The translations under genes and the position numbers were made by a program. The notes beneath the pieces were generated by a model. The model ran no database searches. It saw only the letters and a list, made by a program, of their open reading frames with translations, and had not been told where the DNA came from. Positions 12,235 to 17,489 of a DNA stretch of 64,000 nt are shown piece by piece. Origin of the DNA: Escherichia coli (GTDB lineage Bacteria; Pseudomonadota; Gammaproteobacteria; Enterobacterales; Enterobacteriaceae); the NCBI RefSeq assembly GCF_002854065.1, contig NZ_CP024147.1; one strand, written 5' to 3'. Position 1 is the stretch's first letter. The number at the start of each line of letters is the position of its first letter.

Positions 12235-12513
12235 ATGAAAAAATGGAAAGTACGTAGCGCGTTGGTGGCATTAATCGTGCTGCTGGCCGGTTGTTCCAGT
12301 AATGCGCAGTATAATAGCAGTGCATCGGGCAATGTCGGCACCGCCTGGGGTGGGGATGTGCACTCAACGGTTCAGGGCGTATCTGCTGAGCGAGCCTGGC
12401 GCGATCCGGCGGAGATGATCGTTATTAGTTATTCGACTAATGTTCCTTCCGGCTACGACCGCGTTTATAGCATTCGTATTAACGAACTGGAATATGCTAT
12501 TCGCGATGGGTGA
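12235..12513 (+). pseudogene. 5-prime fragment of a lipoprotein gene, truncated by IS1 (stop codon supplied by the IS1 inverted repeat)
   Basis: Signal peptide plus lipobox MKKWKVRSALVALIVLLAGC-SS; reading frame runs into the IS1 left end and ends at TGA inside ggTGAtgctgcc. Confidence 0.55.
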
Positions 12514-12563
12514 TGCTGCCAACTTACTGATTTAGTGTATGATGGTGTTTTTGAGGTGCTCCA

Positions 12564-12839
12564 GTGGCTTCTGTTTCTATCAGCTGTCCCTCCTGTTCAG
12601 CTACTGACGGGGTGGTGCGTAACGGCAAAAGCACTGCCGGACATCAGCGCTATCTCTGCTCTCACTGCCGTAAAACATGGCAACTGCAGTTCACTTACAC
12701 CGCTTCTCAACCCGGTACGCACCAGAAAATCATTGATATGGCCATGAATGGCGTTGGATGCCGGGCAACCGCCCGCATTATGGGCGTTGGCCTCAACACG
12801 ATTTTCCGCCATTTAAAAAACTCAGGCCGCAGTCGGTAA
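12564..12839 (+). CDS. insA: IS1 InsA (transposition repressor / N-terminal part of InsAB-prime transposase)
   Basis: [43 protein letters not shown]...; A6C slippery site ttaaaaaactc near 12816. Confidence 0.9.
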
Positions 12840-13261
12840 CCTCGCGCATACAGCCGGGCAGTGACGTCATCGTCTGCGCGGAAATGGACGAACAGTGGGG
12901 ATACGTCGGGGCTAAATCGCGCCAGCGCTGGCTGTTTTACGCGTATGACAGGCTCCGGAAGACGGTTGTTGCGCACGTATTCGGTGAACGCACTATGGCG
13001 ACGCTGGGGCGTCTTATGAGCCTGCTGTCACCCTTTGACGTGGTGATATGGATGACGGATGGCTGGCCGCTGTATGAATCCCGCCTGAAGGGAAAGCTGC
13101 ACGTAATCAGCAAGCGATATACGCAGCGAATTGAGCGGCATAACCTGAATCTGAGGCAGCACCTGGCACGGCTGGGACGGAAGTCGCTGTCGTTCTCAAA
13201 ATCGGTGGAGCTGCATGACAAAGTCATCGGGCATTATCTGAACATAAAACACTATCAATAA
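12758..13261 (+). CDS. insB: IS1 InsB reading frame (expressed as InsAB-prime by -1 frameshifting)
   Basis: ORF in track ...[50 protein letters not shown]... Confidence 0.9.
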
Positions 13262-13463
13262 GTTGGAGTCATTACCCACGCAAAGCACTGTTTAGTTTTA
13301 CCATAGTACTTAGTAATAAAAGCATTCATGTTTTCCTCGTATATTATTATTTAAATTCAAACCACCAACTTCATTTGCGAGTCACCGGTATCCCATATTT
13401 TTGGGATGTAGCTATAATTATCCATTCCCGCTATTTAGTCTTCAAAAAAAATTACATTTAATA

Positions 13464-14069
13464 TCATTTATCTTGATTGAGAAATAGTAAGACTAAAAAA
13501 ACAAGCGTCGTCAACCAGCACACTGCTAACACGGTAAGAACGCTAATAAAAACACTCCACTGCTTCGTTTTATACCATTCAATATTTTTGTCAGTATGTT
13601 TTATTGGGAGTAGCTCTTCAGTAGAGAATTCCTGGCTGTTATCATTCCCAGAAATGTGTGCATCAGTGTTTACTTCCCTGGCCTCGCTATCATTGGTATA
13701 GCTACTACAGTCTTCATCACTGCCACGCTCATTCTCACAGACATGTTTCTCGACCTTTCCAAGATATCTGACGCCTTTTCGCGGAATGGTTTTAATTAGA
13801 GAACTCGACAAACCAGCGATGTCTAATGCCTTTCTAAGCATGTAAATCTGCCCATAATAACTGCTGTCGCTTACCGAACCTTTCTGCTCCCGCCAAACCT
13901 CATTGATAATATGTTGCTTATCGGATTCTCCCTGTAGTAAAAGGAGTAAAAATCGATAGCCGTTTTCAGACAGATTAATTACATTGCCTGTACTGGTGGT
14001 GATACGTCGAGACGCTGGGTAAAACTTAACTCCCTGCCCTAAAGAAAAATAAAAACGGTCATCGCTCAT
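13464..14069 (-). CDS. Putative membrane-anchored ToxR/CadC-like transcriptional regulator (N-terminal winged-helix domain, C-terminal TM helix), 201 aa
   Basis: ORF in track; N-terminal region resembles OmpR/ToxR-type DNA-binding domains (GVRYLGKV); hydrophobic stretch WSVFISVLTVLAVCWLTTLVFLVLLFL near the C-terminus; lies in AT-rich DNA. Confidence 0.45.
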   Translation of the reverse strand: MSDDRFYFSLGQGVKFYPASRRITTSTGNVINLSENGYRFLLLLLQGESDKQHIINEVWREQKGSVSDSSYYGQIYMLRKALDIAGLSSSLIKTIPRKGVRYLGKVEKHVCENERGSDEDCSSYTNDSEAREVNTDAHISGNDNSQEFSTEELLPIKHTDKNIEWYKTKQWSVFISVLTVLAVCWLTTLVFLVLLFLNQDK

Positions 14070-15395
14070 AAGTACCGAACCCTGTTTTCTTCTTCACATG
14101 ACTACTCATTACAACTTTGTATGAAGTAAGATGCAAAATCATATTGTTTACATTAAGTTAAGCAATTATACCGTTTAAACAAAGACAATACGTCTCTTTA
14201 TTTCTCATAAAACCCAAATCCCTTACAGGGCTTATTGAAAAATTTAAAAATCACAAATTTCTCAATACTAAAAATGAGATCACATAAGAAATCAAAAAAC
14301 CTTCTCATCTATTTTAAGTTTTCCCAACGTAAAATAAGAGCTTTTATTAATAACTGAACCACTTTACTGTTCTATTTGTTCAGGTATTGCATTACGGTGT
14401 GCTGAGATCCATAGGTGCATCCCTGTATCCCGCGATGAGACTAAAATAGTCGTGATTTAAGCTCGTATCAGATTCTTAGTGAATACCACATTTGTTATAA
14501 TTAAGTGAAAAGATACATTGCTGATTTACATTTTTTGGTTTACAAAATGTCATCACTTACAGAGTTATCGCTGACATATACCTTTAATCTCTTAATCCTT
14601 TCGTGTTATTGCAATACAACCATCCATAAAGCAGGCTATTTTTAGCAGGAAATACTCAGGTGTCAACATTCGAACCCCAACCCTGAAATATTCATATAAA
14701 TTAATGATTTTTTCATTTATTCACACCTAATCAAAGTATTCAAATTCAGATGATTTTTCTGCTCAACAGACACAAACAGGCAATAATACTCTCCAAAGCG
14801 AACAATATTTGGCATTACGATTTAATGCTTCATAATCACCAAATCATTTAACTATAAATTTTCTTATTTTTAACGAAATGGTTGGTGTTTTTTTGGAATT
14901 AAAACACATACATAATATTAACATCTACCGACATTTCACTTTCCGCAAGACGAATGATTTCGAATCCTCATCTACGTTCTCCCATCCCAAATATCTTTAT
15001 TAATAGGCAGTAACGAACACTGTTATAGCAAGATTACCTTATTAACCTAATGGAATCCTTTATGTAACAAGTGAAAATAAATTCCTTAAAATTGATTCTC
15101 AGCAAATCTTAAAAGTTCTCATTATTCTGCAAAATCAGCTTTGCGAATAATCTTATGTTTTTGGGAATTTTGATCTGCTCATTGCTCTCGTGAAAAATAC
15201 AAACAAGAGAAAAAACGCCATTCGTCATGAAAAGAACAGACGTAGCAATGTAATAACATACTAAAATTGATCTCATGAAAGTGGGTGCTTTATAACCAGC
15301 ACAGAAGCTCAGACGTATAAATATTAAACAATTTGCATTGTAAAACGGAGACTATGTATTAAGAAGCCAATCGTAAAAACGGTTCCCTGGCGAGA

Positions 15396-15443
15396 TAAAC
15401 GACAAACAAATGGAAAGCCGGATGATATTTACCTTCATCCGGC
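15396..15443 (-). terminator. Putative rho-independent terminator after glcA
   Basis: Hairpin gccggatga / tcatccggc followed on the minus strand by tttccatttgtttgtcgttta. Confidence 0.5.
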
Positions 15444-15452
15444 ATTATTGAC

Positions 15453-17135
15453 TTACGAAACTAACATCCCGGTAAACACATACGCCTGCAACAGCGTGAT
15501 AATGCCGATAACGCTGGCAAAAATCAGACTGTGCTTCACGGTATAGCGGAACAGTTCAGATTCTCGGCCCACCATGCCCGTCGCGGCGCAGGCCACGGCG
15601 ATAGATTGCGGGGAGATCATCTTGCCAGTTACGCCGCCGCTGGTATTTGCTGCCACCAGCAGAGTGTCAGAGACGTTGATTTGCTGCGCCGTGGTCGATT
15701 GCAGTGAACCAAACAGGGCGTTAGAGGAGGTGTCCGAGCCGGTAAGGAATACGCCCAGCCAGCCGAGAAACGGTGAGAAGAACGGGAACATCACGCCTGT
15801 ACCTGCCAGTACCAGCGCCAGCGTGGTGGACATGCCGGAATAGTTGGTGACGAAAGCGAACGCCAGCACCATGCCAATCGACAATATCGGCCACTTCAGA
15901 CTAATTAGCGTTTCGGCAAAGACGCCAATCCCTTTCTTGATGCCCACGCCGAGGATGAAGATAGAGATAATCGCCGCAATAAAAATAGCGGTGCCGCCAG
16001 CCGAGAGGGGGTCGAATTTAAACACCGCATCCATCGGCGTTGGTTGGGCGACAATGGGTGCCGCTTTCAACACTTGTTGATGCAAATGAGGGATCTGGAA
16101 ATTAATCACCAGTGAATAAAACGCGCCGCCCGGAGCAAATAACGCTTTAAACGGCTTCATGGTCCAGATGGTGACCAGCACCGTTAAGATTAAAAACGGT
16201 GACCACGCTCGAATGATTTGCCCCAGACTATATTCTGAAGGCACGGGACCGCCAGAAGATGGCTTATTTACCACCATCGCACCTGCGGATTGTCCCATGC
16301 TGATTGCCGTTTCGGTATTTTTCGGCCGCCAGACTTTAAGGAATAAAGCGAGTGAGACGATACTCACCAGCGCCGAAGTAATATCCGGCAGTTCCGGACC
16401 AATATAATTAGAGGTAAAGAACTGAGTGACAGCGAAGCTTCCCCCAGCAACCAGCGCCGCTGGCCACGTCTCTTTCACCCCTTTCCAGCCGTCCATCATT
16501 GCTACCAGCCAGAACGGCACAAGAACCGACAGGAACGGTAACTGACGTCCCGCCATTGCGCCAATGTGGAACGGATCGATTCCCGTTACCTGACCGGCGA
16601 CCAGAATCGGCACGCCCAACGCACCAAACGCCACCGGCGCAGTATTGGCAATCAGACACAGCCCTGCCGCGTATAAAGGTTTGAAGCCCAGGCCCACCAG
16701 CAGAGCACCAGTAATCGCCACCGGAGCACCAAAGCCAGCCGCCCCTTCCAGCAGCGCGCCAAAGGAGAAACCAATCAGTAACACCTGCAAACGCTGATCG
16801 TCAGTGATGGAGATGACCGAGCTGCGGATAATATCAAACTGACCGCTGGCAACGGTTAATTTATAGAGGAATACCGCTGCAACAATAATCCAGGCAATAG
16901 GCCATAAACCATAAATAAAGCCATAGCCCGCAGCAGCAAATGCCATATCAATCGGCATTTTAAAGGCGAATATCGCAATCAGGATAGATAATATAAGGGT
17001 TATCGCTCCAGCGACATGTCCTTTCAGACGTAATACCGCGAGTGCAACGAAGAAGAATATTATCGGGATCAGGGCGACCAGAGCGGATAGCCCCAGTCCT
17101 CCCATCGGCATATACATTTGGGTCCAGGTAACCAT
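15453..17135 (-). CDS. glcA: Glycolate/lactate permease (LctP family), 560 aa
   Basis: Full-length polytopic ORF recognised as GlcA; last gene of the glc operon. Confidence 0.9.
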
Positions 17136-17489
17136 ATTGTTCAGTCTCTTATTATCTTTATATGCTTGATATACTTAAGGTTGTAATAAGCAAAAGAGGA
17201 CTGAACTGTAAAATATAGGCGTTATACTTTACAGCAACAGTACGCCGCTAACGCAATTGCTACCTCTGGCATAACAAGTATATCGGGTAAGGGTTTCTGT
17301 TCCGCACACGCAGGCGCAGAGTATCGTTAAGATGTCCATATTGTTGTTTTAATCCCGCTAGTAATGCGCTACGGGTATTTAATATTGTTAAACCCTGATA
17401 ATCGCTCCGGTTATTTCCGGGATAAATGTACTACCGCAGTTACTATCATAGCCCCGACAATAAAACTTGCCGGGGCTTTTTTGACGCTA

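What the first reader, a model, noticed from the sequence alone, without database searches (positions are those of the whole stretch)
14070..15395. A 1.3-kb AT-rich tract with no ORF of 60 aa or more, downstream of glcA
The ORF track lists nothing between 14069 and 15453 on either strand, and the sequence is visibly AT-rich with frequent stops in all frames, in contrast to the flanking core genes. Candidate explanations: decayed remnant of horizontally acquired genes, an H-NS-bound silencing region, or a locus encoding small RNAs or small proteins below the ORF cutoff. It adjoins the IS1 junction, so it may mark the edge of an island that was partly deleted.
Basis: seen in the sequence. Interest (0 to 1): 0.4.

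Follow-up and report, generated by a model that had tools for sequence, protein, structure and literature searches.

The report
Orphaned upstream flank of Tad-pilus island
The AT-rich "empty" 1.4 kb next to glcA is the non-coding front end of a rare, horizontally acquired Tad/Flp pilus island whose pilus genes IS1 has deleted in this genome; it is an ordinary relic of island DNA, not a hidden gene.

Summary
Window 14070-15452 is 32% GC (window average 51%), has no ORF of 60 aa or more, and is the most AT-rich 1.3 kb in the window. The lack of ORFs is what random sequence of this composition gives.

The tract is accessory DNA, found in only 42 of 5,426 complete E. coli genomes. In intact carriers it lies between the glcA terminator and a ToxR/PypB-like membrane-anchored regulator gene that heads a flp-tad pilus operon, which is followed by fimbrial and T6SS genes. 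In this window IS1 (12509-13276) cut flp after codon 17, so only the regulator and its upstream tract survive.

Pfam, a profile of the GerE-type gene found at this position in the closest relatives, and an exhaustive HMMER scan of 1.84 billion proteins found no pseudogene. There is no Rfam hit, and the small ORFs break in a diverged Shigella flexneri allele.

Only the proximal ~150-250 bp shows conservation across 10 aligned loci: a GAGAnnnAAAnGAGA direct repeat 22 nt upstream of a TATAAT. The other ~1.1 kb diverges at about the synonymous rate.

Best reading: promoter/operator plus an unconstrained AT-rich spacer, probably H-NS-bound (inferred, untested). Low novelty and low interest.

The parts
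12509..13276 (+). IS1 copy that truncates the tad island and joins it to the speA side of the chromosome
   Evidence: The terminal inverted repeats were read directly, and the insA/insB ORFs appear. Homology to the intact island starts at 13277. The same junction is found in one complete genome, CUWW06.
13277..13329 (-). Stub of the flp (Flp type IVb pilin) gene: the first 17 codons, then IS1
   Evidence: The window encodes MNAFITKYYGKTKQCFA followed by IS1. The intact Flp in L001 begins MNTFITKYYGKTKQCFACFAKDERGVTAIEY.
13464..14069 (-). Intact 201-aa ToxR/PypB-like regulator (N-terminal winged helix, one C-terminal membrane helix). It is the first gene of the tad operon in intact carriers.
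   Evidence: Pfam Trans_reg_C scores 23.7 bits, just under the 26.2-bit cut-off. The best solved relatives are V. cholerae ToxR, E = 1.7e-7. The hydrophobic C-terminus WSVFISVLTVLAVCWLTTLVFLVLLFL is read. Orthologues precede flp-tadV-cpaB-rcpA and the rest of the operon in 11 loci.
14070..14158 (-). Predicted 5' untranslated leader of the regulator gene (inferred)
   Evidence: Follows from the position of the -10-like element. No transcript data are available.
14165..14170 (-). -10-like TATAAT of the putative regulator/tad promoter (inferred)
   Evidence: Read from the sequence. An equivalent TATAAT/TATATT element lies at a similar distance in the closest orthologous loci. In S. flexneri an IS1 is inserted at 14168/14169.
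14193..14207 (-). Conserved direct repeat TGAGAAATAAAGAGA (10-bp period); candidate operator for the wHTH regulator
   Evidence: It is the only block conserved across the 10 aligned loci, with consensus GAGAnnnAAAnGAGA. It is part of the only significant blastn match to a relative's upstream region (L009).
14185..14310 (.). Cluster of TGAGA-type motifs in both orientations, including a 14-bp inverted repeat
   Evidence: There are 4 exact TGAGA/TCTCA copies in 126 bp, against 0.24 expected. A cluster this dense arises in 0.4% of shuffled tracts, but the motif was chosen post hoc. The cluster explains the only notable folding signal, z = -3.7 / -3.0.
14311..15413 (.). About 1.1 kb of AT-rich island DNA with no detectable gene, RNA family or repeat; probably an H-NS-bound spacer (inferred)
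   Evidence: Its divergence between alleles is close to the synonymous rate of glcA.
15414..15446 (-). glcA terminator-type hairpin, which is the last core sequence; the island/core boundary lies just to its left
   Evidence: Inverted repeat I16. Identity with K-12 and with most E. coli begins here.
15453..17135 (-). glcA (glycolate permease), a core gene co-directional with the tract and the regulator

Best explanation
The tract is the non-coding, AT-rich front end of a horizontally acquired Tad/Flp pilus island. The island sits in the variable region bounded on one side by glcA; in S. flexneri the other side is yqgA-speC-nupG-mltC.

Shown: the tract is accessory DNA that begins right after the glcA terminator hairpin. 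In intact carriers it lies upstream of a ToxR/PypB-like membrane-anchored regulator gene that heads the flp-tad operon. In this genome IS1 has removed everything from flp codon 18 onward, leaving the tract and the regulator as a relic. No gene, pseudogene or known RNA is detectable in the tract.

Inferred: the regulator-proximal ~150-250 bp carries the promoter. This comprises a -10 element at 14170-14165, a TGAGA-N5-AGAGA direct-repeat operator at -35 to -49, and further TGAGA sites upstream. The regulator would bind these sites to activate its own gene and, in intact carriers, the pilus operon.

Also inferred: the remaining ~1.1 kb is essentially unconstrained AT-rich spacer. Like other acquired AT-rich DNA in enterobacteria, it is probably coated by H-NS, which would keep the operon silent until the regulator counteracts it. 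The spacer also separates the tad operon from the co-directional glc operon.
For: Accessory status: 42 of 5,426 complete E. coli genomes carry the tract, none of them has a feature annotated in it, and there is no plasmid match.

Context: in intact carriers the order is wHTH regulator, flp, tadV, cpaB, rcpA, then on to tadG, followed by fimbrial and T6SS genes.

Boundary: the core ends at the glcA hairpin 15414-15446.

IS1 truncation of flp.

No coding signal:
- ORF lengths match shuffles.
- Pfam finds nothing in six frames.
- The GerE tblastn and HMM searches find nothing.
- The exhaustive HMMER scan returns only tiny ORFs called on the tract itself.
- Gene callers on other assemblies call nothing there.
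- Small ORFs are broken in other alleles.

No RNA family and no internal terminator.

Conserved operator and -10 block across the 10 aligned loci, with local motif clustering.

Regulator family: ToxR structures are the closest solved relatives. PypB is listed as the transmembrane regulator of Flp pilin expression in Y. enterocolitica and Y. ruckeri (PMC10269533), and Y. ruckeri proteins are among the homologues.

Long AT-rich gene-free stretches (0.63-1.6 kb) recur upstream of the regulator in 6 of the 11 other orthologous loci.

Divergence between the window and S. flexneri alleles is 5.1% in the tract, against 6.1% at glcA third positions and 0.36% at positions 1+2.

AT 68%, with TpA steps at twice and A/T-tracts at 2.4 times the window density.
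Against: H-NS binding is inferred from composition only. The published high-affinity H-NS motif is not enriched beyond shuffles (3 matches against 4.0 expected), and A-tracts show no clear helical phasing.

The promoter and operator are predictions. The consensus promoter scan did not list this site because its -35 is poor, and the TGAGA motif was chosen by eye before being tested.

Three features are compatible with very old coding sequence or with transcription through the tract:
- a weak period-3 signal (ratio 3.0 against 1.7 +/- 0.7 in shuffles, p about 0.035);
- a G>C excess on the sense strand (252 against 178, p = 4e-4);
- the presence of a divergent GerE-type gene at this position in 4 of the 5 closest relatives.

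The lower divergence of the proximal half (2.9% against 7.4%) could reflect recombination rather than constraint, because one allele is a demonstrable mosaic.
Confidence: 0.7

Rival explanations
1. The tract is the decayed remnant of one or more island genes. One candidate is the divergently transcribed GerE/LuxR-type regulator that sits about 400 bp upstream of the wHTH gene in the closest relatives. Another is an integrase or phage-type module, as seen at that flank in other loci. In either case the gene would have eroded beyond recognition.
For: Four of the five closest orthologous loci (60-64% regulator identity) carry a 179-201-aa GerE-type gene at the equivalent position. L009 has an integrase there, and L007 and L008 have phage-like genes further upstream. 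There is a weak period-3 signal, p about 0.035. There is a strand G/C asymmetry.
Against: tblastn with four GerE proteins gives only chance-level hits, E of 2.9 or worse. The 3- and 4-member GerE HMMs score about 0 bits against all six frames. Pfam finds nothing. The exhaustive scan of 1.84 billion representatives finds only ORFs called on the tract itself. The distribution of stop-free lengths equals random expectation. Even the short, AT-rich bona fide regulator gene scores only 3.8 on the period-3 measure, so the test has little power either way.
Confidence: 0.13
2. The tract encodes an unannotated small RNA, a long structured 5' leader, or one or more small proteins below the ORF cut-off.
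For: Long gene-free upstream regions recur at orthologous loci. One 120-nt window (14190-14309, minus strand) folds better than shuffles, z = -3.7. A stretch at 14733-14844 is invariant between the window and the S. flexneri allele and contains a plus-strand promoter-like site and a 33-aa ORF.
Against: No Rfam match at E <= 1. No intrinsic terminator inside the tract, and promoter-like sites are fewer than in shuffles, 5 against 9.2. The stable fold is explained by DNA-level inverted copies of a binding-type motif upstream of the predicted start site, and it loses significance in a longer context, z = -1.3. Mean z over 66 windows is -0.4. The 55-aa ORF gains stops in two other alleles, the 46- and 40-aa ORFs are frameshifted, and the 41-aa ORF has 9 of 41 residues replaced. 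Only the 55-aa ORF exists in a 15-billion-protein collection, as a singleton.
Confidence: 0.1
3. The tract is simply neutral filler left by the history of insertions and deletions at a recombination hot spot. It would have no role even in intact carriers, with all regulation residing in the proximal ~150 bp.
For: Divergence is at about the synonymous rate, and there are 9-10-bp indels. The distal part is the most diverged. The tract is repeatedly hit by IS elements: IS1 at 14168/9 and about 15344, IS3 at about 15141. No conserved element was found beyond the proximal block.
Against: This reading overlaps largely with the best explanation and differs only on whether H-NS coating of the spacer matters. 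The recurrence of 0.6-1.6 kb gene-free AT-rich stretches in distant orthologous loci hints that length and composition are not purely accidental.
Confidence: 0.3

Closest known systems
PypB-tad locus of Yersinia enterocolitica / Y. ruckeri (Schilling et al. 2010, J Bacteriol 192:3809; cited as reference 42 in PMC3767616 and tabulated in PMC10269533)
   Same: A ToxR-like membrane-anchored wHTH regulator is encoded immediately upstream of, and co-directional with, a flp-tad type IVb pilus operon. Y. ruckeri proteins are detectable homologues of the window's regulator at 41% identity. The locus architecture is the same.
   Different: I could not read the primary paper, which is not held, and I did not compare directly with Y. 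enterocolitica PypB. The E. coli locus has a 1.38-kb gene-free upstream tract, against 0.63 kb in Y. ruckeri. Nothing has been tested experimentally in E. coli or Shigella. In this window the operon itself is deleted.
ToxR antagonism of H-NS at horizontally acquired AT-rich promoters in Vibrio cholerae (Kazi et al. 2016, PMC4829181)
   Same: The regulator's DNA-binding domain is closest to solved ToxR structures. The target DNA is AT-rich and acquired. The candidate operator is a direct repeat overlapping the -35 region.
   Different: The mechanism is transferred by analogy only, with no binding or expression data here. The regulator has almost no periplasmic domain (about 5 residues after the membrane helix), unlike ToxR.
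glcA-sslE (yghJ) spacer of E. coli K-12, the upstream region of the sslE / type II secretion cluster
   Same: It occupies the same chromosomal slot immediately after the glcA terminator. It is also 29-32% GC and lies upstream of an accessory secretion locus on the same strand.
   Different: It is unrelated in sequence: only the terminator aligns, and blastn with 11-base words found no match. It is 484 bp rather than 1.38 kb and serves a different gene cluster.
flp/tad cluster of Pectobacterium (Nykyri et al. 2013, PMC3767616)
   Same: It is an orthologous enterobacterial cluster headed by a homologue of the same regulator at 45% identity. It has an even longer gene-free upstream stretch of 1.6 kb, and the related operator-like block TGGGACTAAATGAGG.
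   Different: That paper attributes regulation to an adjacent two-component system and does not discuss the upstream tract or the wHTH gene. There is no DNA similarity to the E. coli tract outside the short block.

Membership tests
Horizontally acquired (xenogeneic) AT-rich DNA subject to H-NS silencing | AT content well above the host genome average over hundreds of bp | tested here: met
   68% AT over 1,344 bp against 49% for the window. It is the most AT-rich stretch of that length in the window.
Horizontally acquired (xenogeneic) AT-rich DNA subject to H-NS silencing | Patchy, accessory distribution within the species | tested here: met
   Present in 42 of 5,426 complete E. coli genomes. 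Alleles are shared across lineages whose adjacent glcA differs by 5.5% at third positions.
Horizontally acquired (xenogeneic) AT-rich DNA subject to H-NS silencing | H-NS/StpA occupancy in vivo and de-repression in an hns mutant | not testable with these tools
   No ChIP or expression data are available. The high-affinity motif count is not above shuffles.
Promoter region of a PypB/ToxR-type regulator-headed tad (Flp pilus) operon | The adjacent gene encodes an N-terminal OmpR/ToxR-type winged helix and a single transmembrane helix | tested here: met
   ToxR structures match at E = 1.7e-7 over residues 8-108. Pfam Trans_reg_C scores 23.7 bits, slightly below the 26.2 cut-off. The hydrophobic helix near the C-terminus is read.
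Promoter region of a PypB/ToxR-type regulator-headed tad (Flp pilus) operon | The regulator gene is directly followed by flp, the prepilin peptidase, rcp and tad genes on the same strand | tested here: met
   Met in intact E. coli carriers and in 11 orthologous loci. In the window itself only a 17-codon flp stub remains before IS1.
Promoter region of a PypB/ToxR-type regulator-headed tad (Flp pilus) operon | Orthology of the regulator to experimentally characterised PypB of Y. enterocolitica | tested here: inconclusive
   Y. ruckeri homologues match at 41% identity, E about 1e-31, and a review lists PypB for Y. ruckeri too. The Y. enterocolitica protein itself was not compared.
Promoter region of a PypB/ToxR-type regulator-headed tad (Flp pilus) operon | A mapped transcription start and regulator binding in the upstream DNA | not testable with these tools
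   Only a conserved direct repeat plus a -10-like element was found.
Pseudogene remnant | The conceptual translation retains detectable similarity to a protein family | tested here: not met
   The word-index search was also negative but missed a known exact match, so it counts for little.
Pseudogene remnant | Residual codon periodicity | tested here: inconclusive
   The period-3 ratio is 3.0 against 1.7 +/- 0.7 in shuffles (p about 0.035). glcA scores 20-25 and the regulator gene 3.8.
Small RNA gene | Match to a described RNA family, or a promoter-terminator unit with a structure better than shuffles | tested here: not met
   No Rfam hit at E <= 1. No internal terminator. Fold z-scores are unremarkable apart from the motif cluster.
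Small protein gene | The ORF is kept intact, with mostly silent changes, between diverged alleles | tested here: not met
   The 55-, 46- and 40-aa ORFs are disrupted in the S. flexneri and/or GDSC alleles. The 41-aa ORF has 9 of 41 residues replaced.

The most novel reading that the evidence does not exclude
A long (0.6-1.6 kb), gene-free, AT-rich leader may be a selected architectural feature of enterobacterial PypB-type tad loci rather than filler. It would act as an extended H-NS nucleation and bridging platform and as an insulator from the co-directional upstream operon. The membrane-tethered regulator would open it from a cluster of TGAGA direct and inverted repeats. That would make this a tractable model for how a membrane-bound activator relieves long-range silencing of a pilus island.
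Probability: 0.15. Interest if true: 0.4.

Novelty: new member of a known kind. Interest (0 to 1): 0.2.

Why it matters
The result explains an apparently empty 1.4 kb without invoking a hidden gene. It is the regulatory front end and spacer of a rare Tad-pilus/fimbrial/T6SS island at the glcA end of a chromosomal variable region, left stranded here by an IS1 deletion.

For annotation, the stretch should be labelled as island-derived non-coding DNA. The adjacent 201-aa gene should be labelled an orphan PypB/ToxR-like regulator, and the 53-bp flp stub should be recognised.

For biology, it offers a concrete and testable promoter/operator prediction for the E. coli/Shigella tad island. I found no paper on this island in the held library. 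It is also one more example of IS elements eroding adhesin islands in Shigella-type genomes. It does not open a new question.

Tried and rejected
1. GerE/LuxR pseudogene. tblastn with four orthologous-locus proteins and two HMMs gave only chance-level hits. The 'FCKIS' 5-mer match at 15126-15140 was judged to be chance (E = 3.6).

2. Any protein remnant. Pfam on six X-masked frames found nothing. The word-index search of 5.8 billion proteins with concatenated stop-free segments found nothing, but I showed it missed an exact 55-aa member, so I repeated the test with the exhaustive HMMER scan. That scan returned only tiny ORFs called on the tract itself.

3. RNA families and terminators: none.

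4. Repeats and tandem repeats: nothing beyond short chance-level pairs and the glcA hairpin.

5. Similar DNA elsewhere: none in plasmids. In E. coli there were no matches outside the 42 records, even with blastn at 11-base words.

6. Conserved small ORFs across orthologous upstream regions by tblastx: only the GerE genes themselves and a Serratia-Pectobacterium block.

7. H-NS high-affinity motif and A-tract phasing: no enrichment and no clear phasing.

8. Divergence gradient as evidence of constraint: set aside because the GDSC2227PM allele is a recombinant mosaic.

9. Strand G/C skew as evidence of transcription: significant in the window but inconsistent across orthologues.

10. tRNA or att features at the boundary: no tRNA in the window.

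11. Literature. The PypB primary paper is not held. No paper describing a tad island next to glcA in E. coli or Shigella was found.

12. Twelve orthologous or allelic loci were already in hand, and the finding is of low novelty.
Full report
OBSERVATION. The gap is real. Between the start codon of a minus-strand ORF (13464-14069) and the stop codon of glcA (15453-17135, minus strand) lie 1,383 bp (14070-15452) with no start-to-stop ORF of 60 aa or more. The longest is 55 aa. GC is 0.29-0.35 in every 300-bp window, against 0.50-0.60 in the flanking core genes. Overall GC is 0.32 against 0.51, and this is the most AT-rich 1.34 kb of the window. The absence of ORFs adds nothing beyond composition: the longest stop-to-stop frame is 80 codons, and 500 Markov-1 shuffles give 79.9 +/- 17.8. 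The tract does not touch IS1. An intact 201-aa gene and a flp stub lie in between.

WHAT IT BELONGS TO. Megablast and blastn with 11-base words find the tract in only 42 of 5,426 complete E. coli genomes, always once, always on the chromosome, and always without any annotated feature. There is no plasmid match. In an intact carrier (PapRG-06-5) the order on one strand is:
- glcA;
- the tract;
- a 201-aa 'winged helix-turn-helix' gene;
- flp, an A24 prepilin peptidase, cpaB/rcpC, a secretin, tadZ, tadA (CpaF family), tadB, tadC, and tadD-G;
- then a chaperone-usher-type cluster and a T6SS.

O145:H28 strains have the same front end, with the operon cut by IS3. Ordinary E. coli, K-12 included, align with the window only from about 15413 rightward, that is, from the glcA terminator-type hairpin 15414-15446. 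K-12 has an unrelated 484-bp, 29-32% GC spacer there, followed by sslE. The whole tract is therefore island DNA, and the island/core boundary is the glcA hairpin. In S. flexneri 2850-71 the other side of the remnant is IS elements followed by yqgA, speC, nupG and mltC. From my knowledge of the K-12 map, that is the pheV side of this variable region. No tRNA lies in the window.

STATE IN THIS WINDOW. Homology to the intact island runs from 13277 to beyond 14100 at 99.9%. IS1 occupies 12509-13276, and its terminal repeats were read directly. The flp gene is cut after codon 17: the window encodes MNAFITKYYGKTKQCFA followed by IS1, whereas intact Flp begins MNTFITKYYGKTKQCFACFAKDERGVTAIEY. Left of IS1 lie a truncated lipoprotein-like ORF and speA, so IS1 has both deleted the pilus genes and rearranged the region. 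One complete genome, CUWW06, shares this exact junction; it has at least 40 IS1 copies. Partial forms of the regulator are common in Shigella flexneri assemblies.

THE ADJACENT GENE. The 201-aa protein has an N-terminal OmpR/ToxR-type winged helix. Pfam Trans_reg_C scores 23.7 bits, just under the cut-off, and the closest solved structures are V. cholerae ToxR at E = 1.7e-7. A single hydrophobic helix lies near the C-terminus (sequence). Homologues at 37-64% identity occur across Enterobacterales, including Enterobacter, Intestinirhabdus, Mixta, Serratia, Hafnia, Pectobacterium, Erwinia and Yersinia ruckeri. In all 11 loci I fetched they directly precede flp-tadV-rcp-tad genes. A review of transmembrane transcription regulators lists PypB of Y. 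enterocolitica and Y. ruckeri as controlling Flp type IVb pilin expression (PMC10269533). The primary paper (Schilling et al. 2010) is cited in PMC3767616 but is not held. I therefore call the gene PypB/ToxR-like. Direct orthology to Y. enterocolitica PypB was not tested.

IS ANYTHING ENCODED IN THE TRACT? In four of the five closest relatives a divergently transcribed GerE/LuxR-type gene (179-201 aa) sits about 400 bp upstream of the regulator. That made 'decayed GerE gene' a concrete hypothesis. It failed:
- tblastn with the four proteins gives E of 2.9 or worse.
- GerE HMMs score about 0 bits on all six frames.
- Pfam on the six X-masked frames finds nothing.
- A word-index search of 5.8 billion proteins was negative. 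I showed it had missed an exact 55-aa entry, so I reran the test as an exhaustive HMMER scan of 1.84 billion representatives. That gave eight hits, all 41-85-aa ORFs called by gene finders on this same tract in E. coli or Shigella assemblies, some mislabelled 'transposase, partial' because they run out of an IS.
- Gene callers on three more assemblies call nothing there.

Rfam gives no hit at E <= 1 within the tract. No intrinsic terminator lies inside it, and promoter-like sites are fewer than in shuffles. Repeat finders show nothing notable. Period-3 power is marginal, 3.0 against 1.7 +/- 0.7 (p about 0.035). glcA scores 20-25 and the true but short AT-rich regulator gene only 3.8, so this test cannot exclude very old coding sequence.

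A SECOND ALLELE AND WHAT IT SHOWS. The tiny-ORF hits led to a diverged S. flexneri allele (L022, L023). It aligns from 14169 rightward, with an IS1 to its left. Against the window, the tract differs at 5.1% of sites and has one 9-bp and one 10-bp insertion. glcA differs at 6.1% of third positions and 0.36% of positions 1+2. As a whole, then, the tract evolves like unconstrained DNA. Divergence rises from 2.9% in the regulator-proximal 650 bp to 7.4% in the distal 600 bp (Fisher p = 4e-4). However, the GDSC2227PM allele is window-like up to about 15158 and S. flexneri-like beyond, so recombination occurs inside the tract and the gradient cannot be read as constraint. The small ORFs do not survive the comparison. 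The 55-aa ORF gains stop codons, the 46- and 40-aa ORFs are frameshifted, and the 41-aa ORF has 9 of 41 residues changed. O145 strains share the window's tract (0.24% different) while their glcA differs by 5.5% at third positions, so the island has moved between lineages with a breakpoint at the terminator.

WHAT IS CONSERVED. Upstream regions of the orthologous loci share almost no DNA similarity. The exceptions are one 29-bp match between the window and L009 about 125-150 bp upstream of the ATG, and a Serratia-Pectobacterium block. Aligning the proximal 200 bp of ten loci gives a single conserved block with consensus GAGAnnnAAAnGAGA. Examples:
- window and L009: GAGAAATAAAGAG;
- Hafnia and Serratia: TGAGATCAAATGAG;
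- Pectobacterium: TGGGACTAAATGAGG.

The block is followed some 20-30 nt later, in the closer loci, by a -10-like TATAAT/TATATT. In the window the repeat is TGAGAAATAAAGAGA at 14207-14193 (minus strand) and the TATAAT is at 14170-14165. If transcription starts about 7 nt downstream (near 14158), the repeat spans -35 to -49 and the leader is about 89 nt. A direct repeat with a 10-bp period overlapping a poor -35 is what an OmpR/ToxR-family activator site looks like; this rests on established knowledge of that family and is an inference here. Just upstream, 14185-14310 holds four exact TGAGA/TCTCA copies, against 0.24 expected. A cluster this dense arises in 0.4% of shuffled tracts, but the motif was picked by eye first. 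The cluster includes a 14-bp inverted repeat. These DNA-level repeats explain the one notable RNA-folding signal, z = -3.7 in the scan and -3.0 with the tool, which falls to -1.3 in a longer context. Strikingly, the S. flexneri IS1 sits at 14168/14169, inside the predicted -10.

MECHANISM, WITH SHOWN AND INFERRED STEPS.
- Shown: accessory origin, position, boundary, IS1 truncation, absence of detectable genes or RNA families, near-neutral divergence, and one conserved proximal block.
- Inferred (moderate confidence): the proximal 150-250 bp is the promoter/operator through which the membrane-anchored regulator activates its own gene and, in intact carriers, the co-transcribed pilus operon, as reported for PypB.
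- Inferred (from composition and general knowledge of xenogeneic silencing; not tested): the remaining ~1.1 kb, at 68% AT with twice the window's TpA density and 2.4 times its A/T-tract density, is coated by H-NS/StpA, which helps keep the island silent. It also spaces the operon from the co-directional glc operon, whose terminator abuts it.

Two results counsel caution. The published high-affinity H-NS motif is not enriched, and A-tracts are not clearly phased. Gene-free AT-rich stretches of 0.63-1.6 kb recur upstream of the regulator in Mixta, Hafnia, Serratia, Pectobacterium, Y. ruckeri and L009. This is the one hint that length may matter, and I carry it as the 'novel case' at low probability.

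COMPARISON AND NOVELTY. The closest known system is the PypB-headed tad operon of Yersinia. By analogy, ToxR counteracting H-NS at acquired AT-rich promoters in V. cholerae (PMC4829181) is also close. The K-12 glcA-sslE spacer is a positional analogue. Nothing here departs from these kinds. The tract is a new, undescribed instance: I found no paper on a tad island at glcA in E. coli or Shigella. It is an instance of a known kind of sequence, and in this genome it is functionally orphaned.

VERDICT. Observation confirmed. Interest 0.2.

Noticed in passing
window 17214-17435 (+): A full-length match to the Rfam sRNA family C0719 (297 bits, E = 3e-78) lies in the glcA-glcB intergenic region. It is outside the finding.
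   Followed up: no
window 12235-12513 (+), abutting IS1 at 12509: A 92-aa lipoprotein-like ORF (MKKWKVRSALVALIVLLAGCSS...) lies just downstream of speA and runs into the IS1 end, so it appears truncated. NCBIfam gives only weak signal-peptide-type hits. Its identity is unresolved, as is whether it marks the other breakpoint of an IS1-mediated inversion or deletion.
   Followed up: partly
window 14168/14169, about 15141 and about 15344 (equivalents in L022/L023, L003, L004): The tract is a repeated IS target. IS1 sits inside the predicted -10 in S. flexneri, IS3 at about 15141 in strain 2018-05-2CC, and IS1 at about 15344 in four genomes. Each leaves a glcA-proximal remnant.
   Followed up: partly
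L006 851-1420, L007 5013-5618, L008 5025-5603, L017 687-1226: A divergently transcribed GerE/LuxR-type regulator gene of 179-201 aa accompanies the PypB-like gene in four of the five closest tad loci. It is absent from E. coli/Shigella and from L009, so there may be a second, lineage-specific layer of tad regulation.
   Followed up: partly
L005 (GDSC2227PM) against window 15158-15413: This allele is identical to the window up to about 15158 and then carries the S. flexneri-type variants, including the 9-bp insertion. That indicates a recombination breakpoint inside the tract.
   Followed up: yes
window 14169-17135 against L002 (O145:H28): The tract differs by 0.24% while the adjacent glcA differs by 5.5% at third codon positions. 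The island has therefore been exchanged between lineages, with the breakpoint at or near the glcA terminator.
   Followed up: partly
window 14733-14844: A 112-bp stretch has no difference between the window and the S. flexneri allele; 3-6 differences would be expected. It contains a plus-strand promoter-like site (14809-14836) and overlaps a 33-aa ORF (14750-14851). This is probably chance after multiple looks.
   Followed up: no
method note: The word-index protein search returned nothing for a query that contains an exact 55-aa match to a database representative (P0061). Local phmmer scores that match at E = 2.6e-24. Null results from that tool with long X-spaced, low-complexity queries should not be trusted on their own.
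   Followed up: yes
window 14070-15413, minus strand: G exceeds C on the regulator/glcA sense strand (252 against 178, p = 4e-4) although the region is non-coding. The sign matches the neighbouring genes but is inconsistent across orthologous loci.
   Followed up: partly
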